Of a stretch of 64,000 nt of DNA, positions 30,515 to 54,994 are shown in pieces. Numbering within the stretch: the stretch's first letter is position 1; each line of letters starts with the position of its first letter. The notes under the pieces were generated by a model. That model ran no database searches. It was not told the DNA's origin and saw nothing but the letters and a program-made list of their open reading frames with translations. The stretch spans positions 1,426,001 through 1,490,000 of the forward strand of contig CM039008.1 in the NCBI GenBank assembly GCA_017499595.2, in the 5' to 3' direction. This DNA is from Psilocybe cubensis. Its lineage: Eukaryota. The translations under genes were made by a program, and so were the position numbers.

Positions 30515-32892
30515 ATGCAGTCAATACGAAGCCGCGGTCAGTCGCGTATCGCTAAGATTCGCTTGTGCTTTGTAGACTTACAACCCCGTTCTCCAGCCCT
30601 GGCGAGGTCTATCGCTCAGTCTAGATCTCTTACTCGTCCTCAACTCTCAAGGCAACTCGCGCGACGCACTCTCGCTACAGAGTCTCCAGCTACCGTATGC
30701 AACTTTGAATCCAATTTCTCTCGCGCTTATCATTGAGCGTTTCTTACACTAGGCCTCTTCAGCCTCCTCGACTCCCCCACCTCCGCCTCGTCAGTCAAAA
30801 TGGAGCAGATTCCTCACAATTCTTGGGCGCACAACCCTTATCACTCTGTTTGCTGGCGCCGGAGGGTTCTACTACGTCACTCAACTGGACCGCAATCCAG
30901 GAACACAACTACCATTTGACCCGGAAAAGAAGACGCTGGTCGTGCTCGGCAGTGGCTGGGGAACAACGAGCTTGCTGAAAACACTGGACACCACGGACTA
31001 CAACGTCGTGCGTATCCCCTGACGCCCGCCATTGACGGACTGCTATGCTTATCTCGGTTCCAGGTTGTCATCAGCCCGAAGAACTTTTTCCTTTTCACCC
31101 CGCTTTTGCCCAGCGTCGCCGTCGGAACTTTGGCTCCCCGTTCGATTATCCAACCAACACGGTATATCACGAGACACAAGGCGCGCCAGGTTTCCGTCAT
31201 TGAAGCTGAAGCCACGGATGTCGATGTATGTATCATCCGTCGGCTGCTATTCTCCATGACGCCGACTTACACCTGATTTTAGCCTATTAATAAAACTGTC
31301 ACCTTTGTTGGTGCGTCATAACTGCACGTGCGGTGCAGCACTTCATTCTGATTCTTTTGAACAGACAACTCGGATATCAAGGGCGCAGTGTCAGCAACCA
31401 CAATCTCATATGATTATCTCGTATACGGTGTTGGGGCCGAGGTCCAAACCTTCAACATTCCTGGTGTTCAGAAGCATGCTTGTTTCATGAAAGAGTTGGG
31501 TGATGCGGAACGGGTGAGCGCAATTTCCTTGGATATCAGCCGCTGTGTTAAATCAGTGGTTTAGATGCAACGCGAATTCATGGACTGTGAGCTGCGGAAT
31601 ATTCACCATCGCAAGGATTTGACTGATTGTTGTACCTATCAGGTGTTGAAACAGCCGCATTCCCAGGACAAGATTCCAAAGAAGTCGACCGCTTGCTGCA
31701 TATGGTTGTCGTGGGCGGCGGGCCAACTGGTGTTGAACTGAGGTACGCTCCAGCCCCCCATATTTATGCACATATCAACTACAGGGGTTGCTTATATAAA
31801 TAACTCAATATCATAGCGGTGAACTTCACGATTTCCTTGAAGATGATCTGAAGTCATGGTACCCCGAACTCGCTGGCAAAATCCGCATCACCCTCGTCGA
31901 GGCCCTTCCTTCTGTGCTTCCCATGTTCAGCAAACAATTGATCAACTACACCGAGTCCCAGTTCAAGGAGAGCAAGATCGAGATCCTCACCAAGACAATG
32001 GTTAAGGAGGTCAAGGAAAAGAGCGTCGTCTTGCAGATGCCCGACAAGAGTATTGTCGAAGTTCCTTGTGGGTTGGTCGTCTGGGCTGCAGGTAACAAGG
32101 GCAGGAAAATCACTCAGGACCTGATGGCCAAACTTCCCGAGGACCAGACCAACAGGAGGGGTATCACTGTCGATGGTATACAATGCTTATTTTTAAAGTC
32201 GCGCGCTGTTTTCTCATGAAAATATATTCTCCAGATTATATGCAAATGAAGGGTGCCAACGGAATCTTTGCCATCGGTGACTGCACTGCTACGTCATATG
32301 CTCCTACCGCCCAGGTCGCCTCTCAACAAGGTGCCTATCTCGCCCGCGTCCTACACCAAATAGCCAGGCGTGATGCCCTCCAAGCACGTCTGGACGCACT
32401 CGAAAAGGCAGAAGCCCATCTGCCACCAGCCGTCTCCACAGACTCTACGGAAGCGATCGCCGCTGCTGCTGACGACGCCAAGAAGATTGAGGCAGAGAAG
32501 GAGGAGTTGAAGAGGCAATTAGCCAAATTCAAGCCCAGACCTTTCCACTACTCACACCAGGGAACCCTGGCATACATTGGTTCTGACAAGGCCATCGCGG
32601 ACCTGCCCTTCATGAACGGCAATGTGAGTCTTTGCTTGGCCTTTTTGTTTCTCTTCTTTTATCATTGTTGCTCATACTTGTTACCTTGTAGATTGCCAGC
32701 GGCGGTGTTGCTACGTTCCTCTTCTGGAGAAGTGCGTACTTGAGTACCCTTTTCTCCCTGCGCAATCGCACTTTGGTGGCCACCGATTGGATCAAGGTTA
32801 AACTCTTTGGACGGTACGTGCATTTTGCCTTCATCCTCTTTTACCTTTCTGATCCCCTGTGTTTTTTACCCAGTGATGTCAGCAGAGAGTAA
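30515..32892 (+). CDS. Type II (rotenone-insensitive) mitochondrial NADH dehydrogenase, NDE1/NDI1-like
   Basis: [75 protein letters not shown]; multi-exon. Confidence 0.93.
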
Positions 32893-38129: not shown

Positions 38130-40369
38130 TTATGCCCCACCGTCATAATCGCGCCATTTGGGATTTCGCCCCGTTCTACTCGTCCTCGGTGTAACATCTT
38201 CAAAATAAAGTGAGAGGCGATTTGGGTCCATAACACGAGAGTATTCGAGGAATAAACTCAATCATGATAGCGTCAGTAGAATGTGGTGATATCCAAGGTT
38301 GAAACGTACTTACCGAAATGTATAGGCAGTCAAGTCTTCTTTCCTCCAATATGTCATGCTCCATTCCCTGCCAGCTGCTGCGATTTTTCTCGCCATATCC
38401 TCATGAGCGCCCTTCCCCTGTGGATCGCCTCTGAAGAATACCAGGCAATCCCATAGATCGGAAAGATCAACTTGAACGGGAATGTAATGGACCCATGGCG
38501 CGACTCTGTCCATATACCTTTTGATCGAACAGAGATATGTCATTCCTTCCGACCCATTCGGAAAGGATATAGATTAACGGACGAACTCACCACTCGGGAT
38601 ACAAGGTCGACTTGAAAACCAGGCCATGCGATGTGATTAGTCTTTTGAACCGGCTTGACCAAGCATTACCATCAACCTAAGGTACATCAATAAATGTCAA
38701 CGAAGAAGCAACACCGGTTTGGCCAAGGAATGAAATTCATACATCAATATAGTACCGATAGTTTCCTGCTGCGCGCATCCCCTGGCGTTGTCGATATTCG
38801 AAAATCTTTTTCAGCTTTTCGCACATCTCAGGGGGACAATTGACCGGTTTCTCTGCATATGCGATATCTACCATGGCAGGCGCCCATCGTTTTTTTGGGA
38901 TCCGCACGGCCCTCCCCACCTTCTGTCCCTTCTCCGTAGGAATGAGCACCGAAATGTTCTCAGCGAATCCCAAATACTCTAAATCTTCGTCCTCCATCTC
39001 TTGAATGTCGCCTGCCCAACGCACGAGTCGCATGCGCTGCGCAAGATCCCATCGGTACTCGTCACTGTGCCATATTCCTGTATTGCTCCCTCGCCACTGT
39101 AAACGCGTGTCACCGCGCTCGTCCCACTCCGGATTTCCTTGTTGCGCAATATCCTCCATCCAATTTATGGGCATCGCGGGTGTAATGTCGTGGTGCAACA
39201 TTGTCGGTGCGTACGAAAATTGTGGGATAAGAATGCGTTGCGGTTCGGGACCTTTCCCATGGGATATGAATTGACCATGCAGAAGGAAGTGAGATGGATG
39301 CTCGCATGGATCCATTGTCCTGTAATGGTCATGGATGAACGTCTTCACCATTAAGAGGGGTAATCGGAATGGCTCGCCGCCCCAGTTGATGTACTGGTTC
39401 CTTGCAGCCGATTCAGGGGGACACGCGGAGAGCCATCTTAACGCCTTCGACTTCGGAGGATTGTTGATGTCAACAACTAGGTACCTCTTTAGTTTCGGTT
39501 CGACTATACACCATAATCATTTATGCTCACACGTTCCTTCTCTTGCTGCGCGAATAGCTGCATTTTTGAAAACCCTATCCGTAACCAAGTTGGGATTGTC
39601 ATGGGGCGAAAATACGGCGCGGAAAGGGGGTATTGAATTTTCGACCTCTTTCAGCAAATCCATAATTTCATAGGCACCTTTCGCCATGCCATTGGGGCCA
39701 ATATCGTCGAAAGTGTGATTTTTGAGCGATATAGGTTCCTCGAAGGTGTCTTTCCCCACCGTAAAAGAATCTCTATGCGCCTCCCAGTCGCGCTGGATGT
39801 TCTGCAAATCTATCGGATTCATACCCCAAAACGGTTCCAAATCACGATAGATCTGGTCGTACTCGTCTGGCAGTTGAACATTATGTTTCTGAACATATTC
39901 CCACCTTTGAACGACGCAAAGGGTAAATTAGCGCGCAAACAACACTTACATCGACTCACCAATCTCCAAATCCCCTTGGCGGCATCCTTTGGTATCGGCG
40001 GTAATATTCATCCACAGCTTCCTGCAGTGTCGTACTCGCCCTCTCTAACTTTCGATCCCATGCCCTTTGCGCTTCTCGAACCAACTCGAATATAGGATGT
40101 GGTCCGTTAGGATTTACTTGTAATAGACCATCCTTGCGGTAGATGTGTTGCTCCAGCCGCTCTTCCTTGTCTTGTTCGCTGAGCACCCTCGAAGCTAATG
40201 ACCCGGTTCTGATTTGCCGCGTTTTAACTCGAGTCTTCACCTCTTGCAAGCCATCTTGCGCATGACTTATAGGGGCATTGATTTGTCCAGTCAATGTGAG
40301 AATGGCGACGAACGTCAGCAGAGCGAAAATAGGTCTTCTGGTTGACCTTCGTAGATTTAGCCTCAGCAT
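38130..40369 (-). CDS. CAP10-like glycosyltransferase family 90 protein (type II membrane)
   Basis: N-terminal anchor, EYYRRYQRMPPRGFGDW, WRGSNTG, YRYYIDVDGNAWSSRFKRL, PWVHYIPV, WRKEDLTAYTFRLFLEY. Confidence 0.9.
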
Positions 40370-45100: not shown

Positions 45101-45680
45101 GACGAACAAAAGACTGAAAAACGTGCAGTGTAATGCAAGAATAGTGGTTCTGGAGGATCAGTGAAAGAAAAGGAAAACACGATTATGTATGAGAGCCGTC
45201 TCTACCATGGGTACATTCATGCAAATCCTTGGCAGGCCCCAGATTTGCAATTGGTCCACGCTTCGGCATAGCGATACAACTGCTTGTGGGGTGGAAACCT
45301 TCCGATTAGAGGCACATGTGTTACCCGCTCCGTGCAGCTCCGTTTTCGATATGAACAAAAGTAAACAAAAGACCTGCTGGTAATTCGAGGGCAGAAAGCC
45401 CTCTGAGGCCCTATGCTTATCGGAGGCTGTCGATCCGGTGTGAGTTCGGTCCTGGCGAGACCGTGGGCCTTGCTTATGGGGTAACACCCAAAAGAGCCAG
45501 GTACCGCCAGAAATGAGCAGATCTTGGACAGGAACAACTGGAAGAAGGGGGGCTGCTGTTTATGGGAATCGCTTGGTATATATGGTTATCCAAAATCCTT
45601 AAAGAGCCGGTACCTTCAAGTCGATTTTCCATTACACCCAACATCCCCCCTACCGACTTTACCTCCACTCTTTCAATATC

Positions 45681-46472
45681 ATGCGTGTATCAGCAATTAT
45701 TCTCCTTTCTGCATTTACCTTGGTGCTCGGGGCCCCTATCGTGAGTGCTTAGGGTATCTCCAAACAGAGCGAAAATTTAACGCACGCACATTTTTTTAGA
45801 GCAGTGGGGTTGTCGCTCGTAGCAGTTCGGATATTGTCGTAGCAGTGCGTCATTGAATCATAAATATTCTTTGCATTCAGAGAGACTTATCTCATTGATG
45901 TGCAGAGAGATGCAGCCCCTGGTAATCCCGACTGGAAACGCGAGGCTGAGGCTGGCGGCAAGAACCCGGCTTGGAAGAGAGAAGCTGAGGCCGAGGCTGA
46001 GGCTCAGAGAGGTCGTGACCCATCCTGGAAGCGTGAGGCAGAGGCAGGAGGCAAGAATCCGGCTTGGAAACGAGAGGCGGAGGCGGAGCCTCAAAGGGGC
46101 CGTAACCCATCCTGGAAGCGTGAAGCTGAGGCTCAGAGAGGTCGTAACCCATCCTGGAAGCGAGAGGCTGAGGCTGAGGCTGAGGCTCAGAGAGGTCGTA
46201 ACCCATCCTGGAAGCGTGAGGCAGAGGCAGGAGGCAAGAATCCGGCTTGGAAGCGAGAGGCTGAGGCTGAGGCTCAGAGGGGTCGTAACCCATCCTGGAA
46301 GCGTGAAGCCGAGGCCGAGGCTCAGAGAGGTCGTAACCCATCCTGGAAGCGAGAGGCTGAGGCTGAGGCTGAGGCTCAGAGAGGTCGGAACCCATCCTGG
46401 AAGCGTGAAGCCGAGGCAGGAGGCAGGGATCCGACATGGAAGCGCGAGCCAGCCCGCAATCCTACCTGGTGA
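45681..46472 (+). CDS. Secreted Kex2-processed repeat protein (KEP), alpha-factor-like peptide precursor, 223 aa
   Basis: Exons 45681-45740 (signal peptide MRVSAIILLSAFTLVLGA), 45800-45844 and 45906-46472. Twelve KR sites, each followed by EA/EP dipeptide spacers; 13 cores ending [N/D]-P-x-W. Confidence 0.92.
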
Positions 46473-47589
46473 AGATCTACCATCGCAGCTTTCTCCGTTT
46501 TCCACCCATTTGCCTCACTGCGCTCAGTCGCTAGTCGACTGATTTTTGGAATGCAATGTCCACTAGTCGCTACGATTATACGGCTTCAGCGAAGTTGAAC
46601 GATCCATTTTAATGACCTCACCATTCGTTGCATTTTCCAAGCGTTTTCCTTTCAGTGTTTTTTAGCATCTATGTTTCTCTTCATACCTTCAGCATATCTC
46701 ATACCCACTCCCATTCCTTCATTTTTTCTGATATTACGCATTCATTCATTCAATTACATACTCTCAACGTCTTGACATATTCTGTGCTCCTACATTGTAA
46801 AAAATTAGGATTAAATCGCCTTCATAGGACTTAATAAATCAATAAACAAAACTTAATTTGATCATATTTCTCTTGCGTATATTTCGTTCGTGACTGAAGT
46901 CGAAAAGCACATCGTGCAACCATTGGGGTATGCTGATGTATTTGACGACTATGAAGCTACGAATCAGCATTTAGAGGAAGCTACGAGATGTAGAGTGCGC
47001 TTACAAAAGGTGTTCAGGCCATAGTTCGCCGCAGTCGTGAGGATCAGACGATCTGAAATGGCGACAAGGGTGGACAAGCATAACAAGGGGCAGATCCAAG
47101 ACAAGTTTGTAGGAAAAATGGTTGACCCATATTAAGCGCGCTACAGCCACGTTACCACTATGTAAACGGGGTTATTACGCAAGGTCCGTAAGGTCCAGGG
47201 TGTCGCAGAGAGGACTGGGATATCTTCATGCAAGCTTGACCACCTTCAAATCACGCAAATACTCTGCGGGGTTGAATGGATAGACTCACAGTGACTGTGC
47301 CCTATTCGTAAGACGACTGTGGATCAATTGCAGTATCATGATTTCTTCGGTTTGCATGGCGAACATTCGGTAAATCAAGTAAAAATTGACAATATGATCC
47401 TGATGGCAACATGGAGATATACTTACATCGACTGTCGCGCTGATTTGCTGTAAGCGAAAGGTATCTTGTCACCAGCGTTATAATAACGAAACGGGGGACA
47501 AGATCAAGGCTTTTCTTTTCCCTTTTACTCACTACTAATATCCTTTAATATCTTTTTTGCACGACCTTCAGGCAGTTGAAGTTCATATT

Positions 47590-49891
47590 ATGTCCGTCAA
47601 TCAGCCAGTGGTCGAGCCTGCGACCCCAATTTCTGTGAGTCTCTGCGCCCTTTTTCATTTCAGTCAGTATTGGAGATAAGCTTATGTCTGCGATGGGATG
47701 GATAGAGAGTAGAGACCTTCGCGCATACCGGCTTCCGTGTTCCTGACCCGTGAGTGACGTACTAGTAGCAAACTGCCAAATTGCGATTGACCCGAGCAGG
47801 TTTGCTCCACGACAACGTCCTGGGGCTTCCTTTGTGAACGCTTTGCTTGCCACAGCGCTTTTCCGGTGTTGGCATATACTCATCTTCTTTGCTGCCTGGT
47901 CGACCCTTATCACCGTCCTCAATCACCATGGTCATAAGCTCTTCATTCAGGCAACCCTACTTACTGTGTATGCGCATTCCGAGACCTATGTGACTTTTGG
48001 CACTAATCCTATTCTTTAGCGTGGGTACAGTCCTAGGTTTCATTATCTCGTATCGGACGACGTCATCTTTCGAGCGCTACAATGAAGGAAGGAGATTGTG
48101 GTCGCAGGTTATTCTAGCCAGCCGAACAATGGCACGTACCATTTGGTTCCATGTTCCCAGTAAGTCTTTTCATGTCCGCACAAGCTGCTGAAGTGGTGTT
48201 TAATTCATTTCGTAGATGCACCACCTGCGGAAGGAATGAGTGAACAGGAGGCTGCGGCCAGGTCTTTAGTGGAGAAAAAGTCGGCTATCAACCTTCTCGA
48301 GGCATTTGCGGTGGCTATCAAGCATTATTTGAGAGGAGAAGATGGGATTTACTATCAGTAGGACTTCCTCTGTTATTCGTTTTTCTGCATCTGAGGATTG
48401 TATCTCAGGGATTTGTACTACCTCGTCAAATTCCTACCGGCATACGCTTTGCCAGCTGGTTTACCAGCGTCCCCCACCGACAAGTCCGTATTCAGCGAAG
48501 ATATTTCTTTGCCATCTCCCCAGACCCCAGCTCCCAACTCTTTCAGTAGCCCAATATCTGAGAATGCGTATCCAAATGGCTTGACCGCAGCTAATCCGGG
48601 GAGGCAACCTACGATTACCATTGCCCCTATGCCATCGGTTCTTCACCAACGCAATACAAACACTGCTACGTCCCCGACTTCTCTACCGCCTCCTGTGTCA
48701 ATTGGTCCTGCTGGGAAGAGGTCTTCATACTACAGCGGCGGTGTGACATCCCCGGTGTCGACCTATCTCCAGAAAGAGAAGGAGCGAATAATTTTGTCAC
48801 AGCACGATGAAAGCTACCTGATGCCCGCACATATGCCTCCTAAATACAGCGTCTTCGATATTTTCCCATTCTCCCTTCTTGTAAAATGGCTTACAGAGAA
48901 AGGCAAGGACGTTAAAGGGAAGAAAGGTGCCCGGATTCGAGCAAAACTACGCAACGAAGCTATATCGCACAACTTGCCTCTAGAACTGTCGCTATATTTG
49001 GTACCTTTTTGTCGTCCTTGTCGGATAATCTGTTCTCACCATCTTTTAGAGCTCTTATATTGCCTCACTTCAAAACCGTAAAATATGTGACGTCCCAACT
49101 ACCAGTAAGCGGATTAATCGTCAGCGTGCCGCTCACTTTATTGATGAGCTCGTTTCTAGACACCCTGTTATTTTCCTTGAATCAACTGGTGGATAGTCTC
49201 ACTGGATTGGAGCGTATTCTGACCACGCCAATCCCATTCTCGTGAGTAACGTTGAGAAGCTATGACGGTGTTCTAAGAATTTCTATAGTTACTCCATACA
49301 TCTTTGGGTTGTCACTTTGCTATACTGCCTTGCTTTAGTACGTCACTTCCTAACCAGACTTGAATATTCCCTGAGAGATCATCTCTACAGCCTTTCCAGA
49401 TTTGGTCCACACTGAAATGGATCACAATCCCTGGCACTACCGTCATTGTGAGTTGACATGGAAATCCGGTATACTATAACTAAAATGTTCCTTCATAGAG
49501 CTTCATATTTTTCGGCTTTCTTGTCGCTGGTGAAGAAATTGAAAGTGAGTTGCGAGTTTCATTGAATCCGTTCCAGAAATAAATGTGTGTGTGTCAGACC
49601 CTTTCGGATACGATAAAAATGACCTGAACCTCGACCATTTCACACATAATATCATTCGTGAGTCCGATGCCAAACATGTCAAATAGCCTTTTCAACAACT
49701 GAATTCCGTTCCACAATACAGGAAACGAACTGAGAGCAGTGACTTCGACTCCACCTCCCGATCCTACAAGATGGGCATTTGTCCCAGAAAATAACCTTCT
49801 TTTCTCCAATAACACGGATGAACGTGTCTCTCCTGACGAATGGATCTCCCGCGGCCCTAATGCCATGCAAAGGAACCTCAGTCATTTTTAG
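47590..49891 (+). CDS. Bestrophin / UPF0187-family anion channel
   Basis: LGFIISYRTTSSFERYNEGRRLW, AIKHYLRGE, LERILTTPIPFSY, GEEIENPFGYDKNDLNLD; many introns. The 5' exons are less certain. Confidence 0.88.
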
Positions 49892-52293: not shown

Positions 52294-54994
52294 ATGCGAT
52301 TTTGGTTTGGTTTTCGTATCAGACCTCCATCTTATCTATACCTCCATCGTCGACATATGACCACCTCAGTCAACAAAACGGTACACCCCTTCGATAAGGG
52401 TCGGCTTGAAGCCTTACTGAACCGTAGATTCTTCTATGCTCCCGCTTTTGAGATCTACGGAGGTACGTGGCGATTATAGATTCTGCAACGTATTATCTTT
52501 AATAATCCAATTACAGGTGTTGCTGGTCTATACGACTATGGTCCCCCCGGCTCTTCTCTTCAGGCAAACATCATCGCGGAATGGAGGAAACATTTCATTA
52601 TCGAAGAACATATGTTGGAATTGGATACCACAATTATGACCCCTGCCCCCGTTTTCGAAACCTCCGGCCACGTAGCTAGATTCGCGGATTGGATGGTCAA
52701 GGACACAAAAACTGGCGATGTTCTCCGCGCCGATCATCTTGTCAAAAACGTGCTCGAAGCTCGCTTAGCTGGTGACAAGGAAGCGCGTGGCCAGGCTGCT
52801 GCTCCCCCCACGGACGACAAGAAGAAGAAAAAGAAGGCTGCAAAGGGTGCTGCGGTCAAGCTAGCTGATGAAGTTGCGGCAGAGTATGAGACTATTCTCG
52901 CTCAGGTGAGTTGTCAGTTCTTTTTGTTTTCGCGATCGCTTGGCTAAACGCTCTGAAGCTCGATAACTACTCTGGTGCCGATCTCGGTGAACTCTGCAGA
53001 AAACACGACCTGCGAAATCCAGACACGGACAATGAAGTCGGAGAGCCTCAGCTGTTCAACCTTATGTTCGCGAGCAGCATTGGACCCACTGGCCAACATC
53101 CCGGGTAAGTCATCCAGACTTTGAACACCATCTCGCTTCAATTTAAACTATTGTGTTAGTTACCTTCGCCCTGAGACCGCTCAGGGGCATTTCCTCAACT
53201 TCTCGCGCCTGCTGGAATTCAACAACGGCCGTGTACCCTTTGCCTCTGCCCAGATTGGACGCTCGTTCCGAAATGAAATCTCACCACGCGCAGGTCTGCT
53301 CCGTGTCCGCGAGTTCACGATGGCGGAGATCGAGCATTACGTGGACCCTGACGATAAGAAGCACGAGCGATTTGGTGAAGTGCGCGACGTTAAGCTTGTC
53401 CTGCTGGATCGACACATCCAGGAATCGGGCAAGAACACTACCACTGAGATGACTGTCGGAGAGGCTGTCGATAAGGGTATCATCGCAAATGAAACCCTCG
53501 GCTACTTTGTTGCTAGAATCCACCAGTTCCTCGTCAAGATCGGCATCAATCCACAGAGGCTTCGGTTTAGGCAGCACATGGCAAACGAGATGGCCCATTA
53601 CGCGACTGACTGCTGGGACGCGGAAATCCACAACTCTACTGGCTGGACCGAATGTGTGGGTTGCGCCGATCGTGCTGCCTACGATTTGACTGTCCACAGC
53701 AACAAAACTGGCCATCCTTTGGTTGTCCGTCAAGCTTTGAAGGAGCCAATTGTTACTGAGAAGGAGGTGCCCGAGTGGAATAAGAAGGCGCTTGGGAAGA
53801 CATACAAACAGGACGCTGGCGTCATTCAGAAGATTGTAGACTCAATGGATCAGGAGGGGCTGGTCAAATTGAAAGGGCAGCTCGCTCAAGGGTAGGAAAC
53901 ACGTTGGTTCTCGATAATGACGAATCGCTGACCAATTCTTCACAGAAAAGCCGTTATCACATCCTCGGAAGGAAAGGAGTTTGAAGTTACTCCTGAGGTG
54001 CTCACCATCGAGTTGAAGACACTAAAACAGTCAAGTGAGTCATAAAAGCAGAAATAACGGCCATCAAAATTGCTCAATCTCCGTAAACCAGTACGCGAAT
54101 TTACCCCTAATGTTATTGAACCTTCCTTTGGTCTGGGTCGCATTCTGTATACTTTACTCGAGCATAGTTTCTGGAGCAGAGAGAAAGACGTTGAACGTGG
54201 TGTGCGTATATGAATAATATCTGCCATTTAGAATGAAGCTTACATACACCGCATCAGGTACTGTCACTCCCGCCCGTAGTTGCGCCCACCAAGGTTCTCA
54301 TCGTGCCCTTGAGTGCCCGAGAGGAGTTTGACCCGTTGGTCAAGGAAGTTTGTGCGTCTCTTTATTTCTATTGTACGCCCATCTGGTTTGACTTTATCAA
54401 CTGACGGCATCTGTTTCTTCTTTCGTCTTTCATTTCTCTCTTGGGTGGTCCTTGGCTGGTTTCAAAACGAAAAAAAAAAACGTTAAGCTTCGAAACTGCG
54501 CAAGGCAGGTGTATTTTCGCGCGTTGATGACTCGAATACATCCATCGGTAAACGATATGCCCGCAATGATGAGCTCGGTACGCCGTTTGGGGTCACGCTG
54601 GACTTTGCTTGTACGTCAAACTCCGTTCCATCCGTCTTGATGACTTAAACCGTTTCTCTGATACCTAATCTTGTCCTCCCTCTCCAAATACAGCCGTGCA
54701 AAACAGAACAATGACACTGCGGTGGGTTGCTTTCCATTTGGTTTTGGTTTCCACGAAAGAGCCACTATCTGTTCCCCCCTCCCCCCTTGATTGTGTTTTG
54801 ATTATTGATTGGCTGATCGTTTCCTTTCTTTTTTATCGGTTTTTGTTTACAGCGAGCGAGATACGATGGACCAGAGAATAGGATCCATCGACGAAGTCAT
54901 TGCGGTTGTCACGGACCTCGTCTTTGGGAATATTACATGGGAGGAGGCCTGTACACGTCTGCCGGCGTATGATGGTGTCCAAGCCATCGAGTAG
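52294..54994 (+). CDS. GRS1: Glycyl-tRNA synthetase (class II), likely dual cytosolic/mitochondrial
   Basis: [80 protein letters not shown]. In-frame ATGs at 52294 and 52357. Confidence 0.96.

What the first reader, a model, noticed from the sequence alone, without database searches (positions are those of the whole stretch)
45681..46472. Alpha-factor-like secreted peptide precursor in an apparent basidiomycete, releasing a family of [N/D]-P-x-W peptides
Seen: a signal peptide and short pro-region followed by 13 cores separated by KR plus (EA)n/EP spacers. Cores are QRGRNPSW x6, GGKNPAW x3, and QRGRDPSW, GGRDPTW, ARNPTW and (DA-AP)GNPDW once each. Every spacer consists of X-Ala/X-Pro dipeptides, and the last core ends in W at the stop codon, so all products would share a free C-terminal Trp. 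Established: Kex2 cuts after KR, Kex1 trims C-terminal K/R, and Ste13 removes X-A/X-P dipeptides; this is how yeast alpha-factor matures. Basidiomycete mating uses only CaaX lipopeptide pheromones and Ste3-type receptors, so this is not their known pheromone. KEPs are a known class, but most have no assigned function. Inference: a cocktail of 5-8-residue, mostly cationic signalling or defence peptides; the Gln-initiated ones probably become pyroglutamyl peptides.
Basis: partly seen in the sequence, partly recalled or inferred. Interest (0 to 1): 0.85.

Follow-up and report, generated by a model that had tools for sequence, protein, structure and literature searches.

The report
Mushroom secreted multi-peptide precursor gene
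This is a real, transcribed mushroom gene for a secreted protein that is probably cut into 13 tiny peptides all ending in tryptophan, but it belongs to a class of fungal peptide precursors that has already been described and partly tested in related mushrooms.

Summary
A three-exon gene (45681-46472, + strand) encodes a 223-aa protein: a signal-peptide-like N-terminus, a short pro-region, and 13 cores ending in [N/D]-P-x-W. There are 12 KR sites, each followed by an (EA)n or EP spacer. A contig from a run that behaves like RNA (the tool only guesses it is RNA) joins all three exons at GT..AG introns. Two DNA runs read straight through. The host is an agaric close to Psilocybe.

It is a Kex2-processed repeat protein (KEP) of the alpha-pheromone-like type, and that type is already in print. 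Le Marquer 2019 described basidiomycete KEPs with STE13 signatures. Vogt 2022 showed that a Coprinopsis KEP yields QMRPPSW and pyro-QYKAPSW, and noted many basidiomycete KEPs with C-terminal Trp cores. Their knockouts had no phenotype and their synthetic peptides had no antibacterial activity.

Relatives with the same build occur in Termitomyces, Lentinula, Pleurotus and others. In Termitomyces the relative is annotated two locus tags from GlyRS, which lies about 6 kb downstream here. No RiPP tailoring enzyme was found nearby.

Verdict: a new member of a known kind. The maturation model is well supported by analogy. The function remains unknown. Interest is modest.

The parts
45577..45583 (+). 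TATATAT, a possible TATA box about 22-28 nt upstream of the first base covered by the spliced RNA-like contig
   Evidence: Read from the sequence. The contig starts at 45605. Contigs cannot prove a transcription start, so this is only a hint.
45605..45680 (+). 5' untranslated region (minimum extent)
   Evidence: The X10 contig begins at 45605. X10 gives no cover over 45334-45601.
45681..45740 (+). Exon 1 coding part: MRVSAIILLSAFTLVLGAPI, a signal-peptide-like N-terminus
   Evidence: Translation. One basic residue is followed by an uncharged hydrophobic stretch and G-A-P. The N-termini of relatives align to it (MR.....AAP[IV]). No signal-peptide predictor was available.
45741..45799 (+). Intron 1 (59 nt, GT..AG)
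   Evidence: Skipped in an X10 contig and present in DNA runs X1 and X6.
45800..45844 (+). Exon 2: SSGVVARSSSDIVVA, the pro-region with [IV]-A-R motifs
   Evidence: The pro-region motif is shared with relatives.
45845..45905 (+). Intron 2 (61 nt, GT..AG)
   Evidence: Skipped in an X10 contig. It is retained in a low-depth X11 contig (45789-45966).
45906..46472 (+). Exon 3 coding part: 13 cores ending in W, 12 KR sites, (EA)n/EP spacers, and the stop at 46470-46472
46473..46766 (+). 3' untranslated region (approximate extent)
   Evidence: An X10 contig covers 46385-46766. X10 gives no cover over 46808-47200.

Best explanation
The gene encodes a Kex2-processed repeat protein (KEP) of the alpha-pheromone-like type in an agaric close to Psilocybe.

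Shown here:
- The gene is transcribed and spliced as modelled.
- The reading frame links a signal-peptide-like N-terminus to 13 short cores.
- Each core is followed by KR, and each KR is followed by X-Ala/X-Pro dipeptides.

Inferred from established yeast alpha-factor biology and from published experiments on agaricomycete relatives:
- The precursor enters the secretory pathway.
- A Kex2-type protease cuts after each KR, and probably after the single Arg of ..VAR before the first core.
- A Kex1-type carboxypeptidase removes the K and R, leaving a free C-terminal Trp.
- A Ste13-type dipeptidyl aminopeptidase removes the EA/EP/DA/AP dipeptides.
- The seven Gln-initiated cores cyclise to pyroglutamyl peptides.

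The product would be a secreted mix of linear, minimally modified 5-8-residue peptides: pGlu-RGRNPSW (the main one), GGKNPAW, and the minor forms pGlu-RGRDPSW, GGRDPTW, ARNPTW and GNPDW. Shorter forms are possible if single Arg residues inside QRGR are also cut.

The most likely role is extracellular, in signalling or in interaction with other organisms, rather than direct killing of bacteria. That role is not established for any member of this group.
For: - Gene structure and repeats.
- Splicing: both introns are skipped in an X10 contig and kept in two DNA runs. X10 does not cover the flanks.
- Spacers: 12 of 12 are X-A/X-P runs, and 13 of 13 cores end in P-x-W.
- Selection: among the 7 Q-type units, 5 variable codon columns are synonymous and 1 is a conservative N/D change. 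This is consistent with selection on the peptide.
- In-frame polymorphism: one extra GAGGCT (one more E-A) lies behind 46256 in an X11 contig.
- Relatives with the same build: Termitomyces sp. Mi166 P0002, Lentinula aff. lateritia P0161 (QRGNAPDW-KR-EP), Pleurotus eryngii P0008, and unnamed P0003, P0162, P0164, P0157, P0169 and P0173. They share an MR signal, AAP, an [IV]AR pro-region, P-x-W cores, KR and E-A/E-P.
- Synteny: the Termitomyces relative (C0995_002980) and its GlyRS (C0995_002982) are listed with the same longest-contig length, 58250 bp. Here GlyRS lies about 6 kb downstream.
- Published tests in relatives: processing of KEP 490115 to QMRPPSW and pyro-QYKAPSW; GPPAPSW in native Coprinopsis supernatant; -AADW peptides with STE13-type processing in Lentinula and Pleurotus fruiting bodies (PMC9769878, Results and Discussion read).
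Against: - No peptide from this gene has been observed.
- Kex2, Kex1, Ste13 and glutaminyl cyclase could not be looked for in this organism, because no genome is held.
- The run with the spliced contig is only guessed to be RNA and comes from a single study.
- A second such run (X11) shows intron 2 retained at low depth.
- The first core needs a monobasic cut.
- In Coprinopsis, six kep knockouts gave no phenotype and the synthetic peptides tested gave no antibacterial activity. Any functional statement is therefore weak.
- The signal peptide was judged by eye and by alignment only.
Confidence: 0.78

Rival explanations
1. The cores are precursors of heavily modified or cyclised RiPPs of the dikaritin/ustiloxin type, made by neighbouring tailoring enzymes, rather than plain linear peptides.
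For: Umemura 2020 reports that 22% of KEP genes have DUF3328 genes within 15 genes. One type (P-3, #165; Fonsecaea, Cladophialophora, Galerina, Psilocybe, Coprinellus) has 'W accompanied by P', and 4 of its 7 members have a DUF3328 neighbour. A 13.7-bit, E=0.036 match to MbnB/TglH/ChrH fell on the ORF at 47305-47544 (-).
Against: Pfam scans covered 39 neighbouring stop-to-stop ORFs between 20.5 and 62.8 kb (40 scanned, counting the KEP frame itself). They found no DUF3328, tyrosinase, methyltransferase or P450. The MbnB match is far below its 25-bit cut-off, and the ORF reads like non-coding sequence. An HxxHC motif search (motif recalled from memory) hit only 3 ORFs. The two outside the KEP locus had no Pfam match, and the third is an off-frame reading of the KEP repeat. 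The cores contain no Tyr. In Basidiomycota only 6.1% of KEP genes have a DUF3328 neighbour. Short exons could have been missed.
Confidence: 0.07
2. The peptides are true pheromone-like ligands, sensed by the fungus's own, still unknown receptor. They would be a basidiomycete remnant or parallel of the ascomycete alpha-pheromone system.
For: The precursor build is canonical for alpha-pheromones. Le Marquer 2019 notes that a C-terminal 'PCW' is conserved in alpha-pheromones of Fusarium and other Sordariomycetes, and suggests cognate GPCRs for the basidiomycete KEPs. The P-x-W-COOH end is kept across relatives while the rest of the core varies: 63 of 101 W-ending cores in 18 proteins are P-x-W. 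The locus appears conserved next to GlyRS between two Agaricales families.
Against: No receptor is known. Basidiomycete mating is described as using only a-type pheromones. The KEP 490115 knockout in Coprinopsis had no growth or fruiting phenotype. Homology to ascomycete pheromone precursors is not demonstrable: Pfam gave no MF_alpha match on the repeat exon.
Confidence: 0.12
3. The protein acts largely unprocessed or as longer fragments, for example as a cell-wall or surface protein like the Ustilago repellent precursor. Alternatively, the peptides are functionless by-products.
For: No phenotype was found for six kep knockouts in Coprinopsis. KEPs with long repeats exist. The comparison with the Ustilago repellent precursor is recalled from memory.
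Against: The cores are only 5-8 residues long, and every junction carries a complete KR plus X-A/X-P signature. Synonymous changes dominate among the core copies. Related precursors are actually processed to such peptides.
Confidence: 0.05

Closest known systems
[quoted passage not shown] 2022, PMC9769878)
   Same: Both are secreted agaricomycete repeat precursors. Dibasic sites are followed by XA/XP dipeptides. The 7-8-residue cores start with Gln, carry a basic residue and end in P-S-W (published QYKAPSW and QMRPPSW against QRGRNPSW here). Pyroglutamate formation is seen there and expected here.
   Different: The Coprinopsis precursor uses RR sites, while this one uses KR only. The core sequences differ. 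This gene has 13 cores of two main types (Q-type and GG-type). I could not align the two proteins, because the 490115 sequence and Fig. S10a are in figures and supplements that I could not see. My three protein searches did not return a Coprinopsis member.
Basidiomycota KEPs with alpha-type pheromone signature, and the conserved XSDW repeat motif (Le Marquer et al. 2019, PMC6339444)
   Same: All have a signal peptide, repeats separated by KR, and a STE13 signature. The authors call the structure 'perfectly canonical' for alpha-pheromone precursors. The repeat motif ends in Trp.
   Different: The motif here is [N/D]-P-x-W rather than XSDW. The species lists and sequences are in Additional file 2, which I could not see.
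Yeast alpha-factor precursor (MFalpha1/2) and ascomycete alpha-pheromone precursors
   Same: They work the same way: Kex2, Kex1 and Ste13 mature tandem cores. A Trp at the C-terminal end after Pro-x is noted for Sordariomycete pheromones ('PCW').
   Different: Pfam gave no MF_alpha or MF_alpha_N match on the repeat exon. The cores are much shorter (5-8 aa against 9-24 aa). No link to mating is known in Basidiomycota.
Ustiloxin/phomopsin/asperipin (dikaritin) KEP-type RiPP precursors
   Same: Tandem short cores are separated by Kex2 sites in a secreted precursor.
   Different: No DUF3328 or tyrosinase neighbour was found. The cores have no Tyr. The spacers are of the Ste13 type.

Membership tests
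KEX2-processed repeat proteins (KEPs) | At least three repeated motifs separated by KR/RR/KK sites | tested here: met
   There are 12 KR sites and 13 related cores. The criterion is as described in PMC6339444.
KEX2-processed repeat proteins (KEPs) | N-terminal signal peptide for secretion | tested here: inconclusive
   The N-terminus MR + hydrophobic stretch + GAP aligns with the N-termini of relatives. No signal-peptide predictor was available.
KEX2-processed repeat proteins (KEPs) | The gene is expressed, and the signal-peptide exon is joined in frame to the repeat exon | tested here: met
   A spliced contig in run X10 joins the three exons, and DNA runs are unspliced. X10 is only guessed to be RNA, and this rests on one study.
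Alpha-pheromone-like basidiomycete KEPs with C-terminal Trp cores (Le Marquer 2019; Vogt 2022) | STE13 signature: X-A/X-P dipeptides directly after the dibasic site | tested here: met
   12 of 12 sites.
Alpha-pheromone-like basidiomycete KEPs with C-terminal Trp cores (Le Marquer 2019; Vogt 2022) | Cores end in Trp immediately before the dibasic site or the stop | tested here: met
   13 of 13 cores. The same holds in the relatives: 101 W-ending cores in 18 proteins.
Alpha-pheromone-like basidiomycete KEPs with C-terminal Trp cores (Le Marquer 2019; Vogt 2022) | Sequence homology to the characterised member, C. cinerea KEP 490115 | not tested
Only the published peptides could be compared by eye.
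Alpha-pheromone-like basidiomycete KEPs with C-terminal Trp cores (Le Marquer 2019; Vogt 2022) | Processed peptides detectable by mass spectrometry | not testable with these tools
   Needs LC-MS/MS.
Yeast alpha-factor family (Pfam MF_alpha / MF_alpha_N) | Match to the Pfam models | tested here: not met
   The Pfam scan of the exon-3 frame returned only a summed 32-bit match to the H-NS C-terminal domain, with no single stretch passing, and no MF_alpha match. Exons 1-2 were not scanned.
Dikaritin-type KEP RiPP precursors | DUF3328 (UstYa-like) gene close to the precursor gene | tested here: not met
   No DUF3328 match in 39 neighbouring ORFs. Short exons may have escaped.
Dikaritin-type KEP RiPP precursors | Tyr in the core for ether cross-link | tested here: not met
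   No Tyr in any of the 13 cores. The feature is as described.

The most novel reading that the evidence does not exclude
The invariant P-x-W-COOH end, kept while the rest of the core drifts, may mark a conserved ligand family. The gene may also be an old single-copy locus held beside GlyRS across Agaricales. Together these would point to a receptor-sensed peptide signal in mushroom-forming fungi, possibly descended from the alpha-pheromone system that basidiomycetes are thought to have lost.
Probability: 0.12. Interest if true: 0.75.

Novelty: new member of a known kind. Interest (0 to 1): 0.3.

Why it matters
The function of KEP-derived peptides in mushrooms is an open question. This gene is a clean, highly repeated (13-core), apparently expressed example. 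No near-identical protein turned up in the large protein collection: the best hit was 49% identical. Its predicted peptides are easy to synthesise and to look for by the published peptidomics protocol. It adds an agaric close to Psilocybe to the W-terminal group and hints at a conserved locus. It does not change what is known about the class.

Tried and rejected
- Whole-genome search: no genome is held for this window, so Kex2, Kex1, Ste13, glutaminyl cyclase and paralogues could not be sought.
I scanned individual open frames instead.
- ESM Atlas: the best hit was 0.78, to a bacterial hypothetical cluster, with recognition 884. This is uninformative.
- The representative-library search also returned animal and other repeat proteins (for example P0129, P0130, P0134, P0137, P0138). 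I set these aside as compositional or repeat look-alikes without signal peptide or KR logic.
- Pfam H-NS C-terminal match (32 bits summed, no single stretch passing): rejected as a repeat artefact.
- MbnB/TglH/ChrH 13.7-bit match at 47305-47544 (-): rejected.
- No listed holder is on record as RNA. The RNA nature of X10 and X11 is the tool's guess.
- Parts of the window without X10 cover are not used as evidence of silence.
- Umemura's widespread type G-1/P-2 was considered as the home family. I judged it unlikely, because it is described as Tyr-rich. Type P-3 ('W accompanied by P', includes Psilocybe and Galerina) may be the home type, but its sequences are in a supplement that I could not see.
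- Earlier-findings look-ups gave nothing relevant.
- The Nagy 2023 and Termitomyces BGC papers: a term search of the text held showed no discussion of KEPs. For Nagy 2023 only the first 300,000 characters are held. In the Termitomyces paper the term occurs only in the reference list.
- A search of the held library for the six peptide strings found only QYKAPSW, in Vogt 2022.

Full report
**What is there.** The + strand between 45681 and 46472 carries an ATG, 60 coding bases, a 59-nt GTGAGT..TAG intron, 45 coding bases, a 61-nt GTGCGT..CAG intron, and a 567-nt exon ending in TGA. Spliced, this gives a 223-residue protein. It starts with MRVSAIILLSAFTLVLGAPI (signal-peptide-like), continues with SSGVVARSSSDIVVAR (pro-region), and then has 13 cores that all end in [N/D]-P-x-W.

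The cores are QRGRNPSW x6, GGKNPAW x3, and QRGRDPSW, GGRDPTW, ARNPTW and GNPDW once each. Twelve KR sites separate the cores. Each is followed by EAEA, EAEAEA, EAEAEAEA, EAEAEP or EP, so 12 of 12 spacers are runs of X-Ala/X-Pro dipeptides. The last core ends at the stop codon. Tandem Repeats Finder sees periods of 54, 87 and 183 nt. It is the only such array in the window.

**Is the gene real?** The repeat leaves three other frames open as well, so an open frame alone proves nothing. The decisive evidence is from public runs.

- In run X10 one 323-nt contig lies on 45605-45740, skips exactly intron 1 (GT..AG), lies on 45800-45844, skips exactly intron 2 (GT..AG), and continues on 45906-46047.
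- X10 holds about 19 Mb of contigs, against 41-46 Mb for the DNA runs, and the tool only guesses that it is RNA.
- Contigs of DNA runs X1 and X6 cross 45200-46047 with no joint.
- X10 covers 46385-46766 but nothing over 45334-45601 or 46808-47200. This suggests a transcript of roughly 45605-46766.
- Splicing puts the signal-peptide exon in frame with the repeat exon.
- Caveats: this rests on one study, on contigs rather than reads, and on a guessed RNA label. The sister run X11 has a low-depth contig that keeps intron 2.

Within the gene, the seven Q-type units vary at five codon columns synonymously and at one conservatively (N/D). An X11 contig carries one extra in-frame GAGGCT, which adds one E-A to a spacer. 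Both observations fit selection on the peptide and tolerance of spacer length. The numbers are small, and concerted evolution among repeats confounds them.

**Whose gene?** A GlyRS exon at 53125-53895 is 94% identical to Psilocybe cubensis. It is 86-88% identical to Agrocybe pediades, Gymnopilus dilepis and Psilocybe cyanescens. No whole genome is held.

**Relatives.** Three searches were run: a word-indexed search, a full HMMER search of 1.84 billion representatives and a profile search. Together they returned a set of small fungal proteins with the same build (sequences; names).

- Termitomyces sp. Mi166 P0002, with x-P-G-W cores.
- Lentinula aff. lateritia P0161, with QRGNAPDW-KR-EP. This is the most similar core.
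- Pleurotus eryngii P0008.
- Unnamed P0003, P0162, P0164, P0157, P0156, P0169 and P0173.
- More loosely, Dendrothele bispora, Stygiomarasmius scandens and Ceratobasidium proteins. Their W-ending cores are flanked by acidic KR-bounded spacers instead.

Across the window protein and 17 such relatives there are 101 W-ending cores, and 63 of them are P-x-W. Six of the 18 proteins end in W at the stop. The non-repeat N-termini also align (MR.....AAP[IV].., [IV]-A-R). This argues for common descent rather than repeat look-alikes.

The searches also returned unrelated animal and bacterial repeat proteins, which I set aside. No hit was above 49% identity, so no near-identical protein turned up in that collection within the searched length range.

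The Termitomyces relative is C0995_002980 and its GlyRS is C0995_002982. Both are listed with a longest contig of 58250 bp. Here GlyRS lies about 6 kb downstream on the same strand. This suggests a conserved locus, though it rests on one species.

**Neighbourhood.** Pfam scans of 39 neighbouring stop-to-stop ORFs found only housekeeping-type matches or sub-threshold hints: NDH2, GT90, a bestrophin-like hint and GlyRS. They found no DUF3328, tyrosinase, methyltransferase or P450. A 13.7-bit MbnB-like match at 47305-47544 (-) is noise. The cores have no Tyr. A dikaritin-like RiPP cluster is therefore unlikely, although short exons could have been missed.

**What is known.**

- Le Marquer et al. 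2019 (PMC6339444; passages and section 9 read) defined KEPs. They reported, 'to our surprise', basidiomycete KEPs with a clear STE13 signature whose structure is 'perfectly canonical' for alpha-pheromone precursors. They also reported a conserved XSDW repeat motif in Basidiomycota.
- Umemura 2020 (PMC7329392; passages read) found 7878 KEPs. One type (P-3, #165) has 'W accompanied by P' and occurs in Galerina, Psilocybe and Coprinellus.
- Vogt et al. 2022 (PMC9769878; Results parts 1-2 and Discussion read) expressed Coprinopsis KEP 490115 in Pichia. They detected QMRPPSW, QYKAPSW and pyro-QYKAPSW, showing dibasic cleavage, removal of XA/XP and pyroglutamate formation.
[quoted passage not shown] They detected GPPAPSW in native Coprinopsis supernatant and -AADW peptides in Lentinula and Pleurotus fruiting bodies. 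Six kep knockouts had no phenotype, and the synthetic peptides tested had no antibacterial activity.
- The exact peptide strings of this gene do not occur in the held library.

**Verdict.** The class itself is already described and partly characterised, including the specific flavour with a Ste13 signature, a C-terminal Trp and a pyroGlu N-terminus. This is therefore a new member of a known kind.

Function remains unknown, here as for the whole group. I favour an extracellular signalling or biotic-interaction role over direct antibacterial action, with low confidence. The boldest reading still open is that P-x-W-COOH peptides are receptor-sensed signals conserved across Agaricomycetes, possibly related to the ascomycete alpha-pheromone system, whose Sordariomycete members end in 'PCW'.

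Noticed in passing
window 45981-46406 (Q-type cores): Pfam gives a summed 32.3-bit match (E 8e-8, above the 25.6-bit cut-off, but with no single stretch passing) between the repeated W-KR-(EA)n-QRGRNPSW units and the H-NS C-terminal DNA-binding domain model. It is most likely a repeat artefact. The resemblance of the Q/R-G-R-x-P-x-W core to that domain's central motif is curious.
   Followed up: no
window 53125-53895 (+), with further exons about 52480-54640: Glycyl-tRNA synthetase gene, 94% identical to Psilocybe cubensis over one 256-aa exon. It serves as the taxonomic anchor and as the synteny partner of the KEP in Termitomyces sp. Mi166.
   Followed up: partly
window 46047-46385: All four short-read assemblies laid (DNA and RNA-like) break into 35-137-nt contigs inside the repeat array. 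This may help explain why no near-identical protein was found in the protein collection (best hit 49% identity).
   Followed up: no
window 46256 and 46497: Two variants appear in the RNA-like runs: one extra in-frame GAGGCT (one more Glu-Ala in a spacer) in an X11 contig, and G>A at 46497 in the 3' UTR in an X10 contig. They probably reflect strain or allele differences.
   Followed up: no
window 48244-49242 (+): ORFs with a weak (18 bits, E 0.0018, sub-threshold) match to the bacterial/fungal bestrophin family lie between the KEP and GlyRS.
   Followed up: no
window 32096-32743 (+) and 38313-38573 (-): An exon matches the NDH2 (alternative NADH dehydrogenase) C-terminal domain at 32.6 bits. 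Another exon gives a sub-threshold glycosyltransferase family 90 match at 21.6 bits. These are ordinary neighbours.
   Followed up: no
window 45200-45399: Contigs of both RNA-like runs (X10 to 45298, X11 to 45399) cover the stretch just upstream of the KEP promoter. This suggests that another transcript ends or starts there. No ORF with a Pfam match was found on either strand.
   Followed up: no
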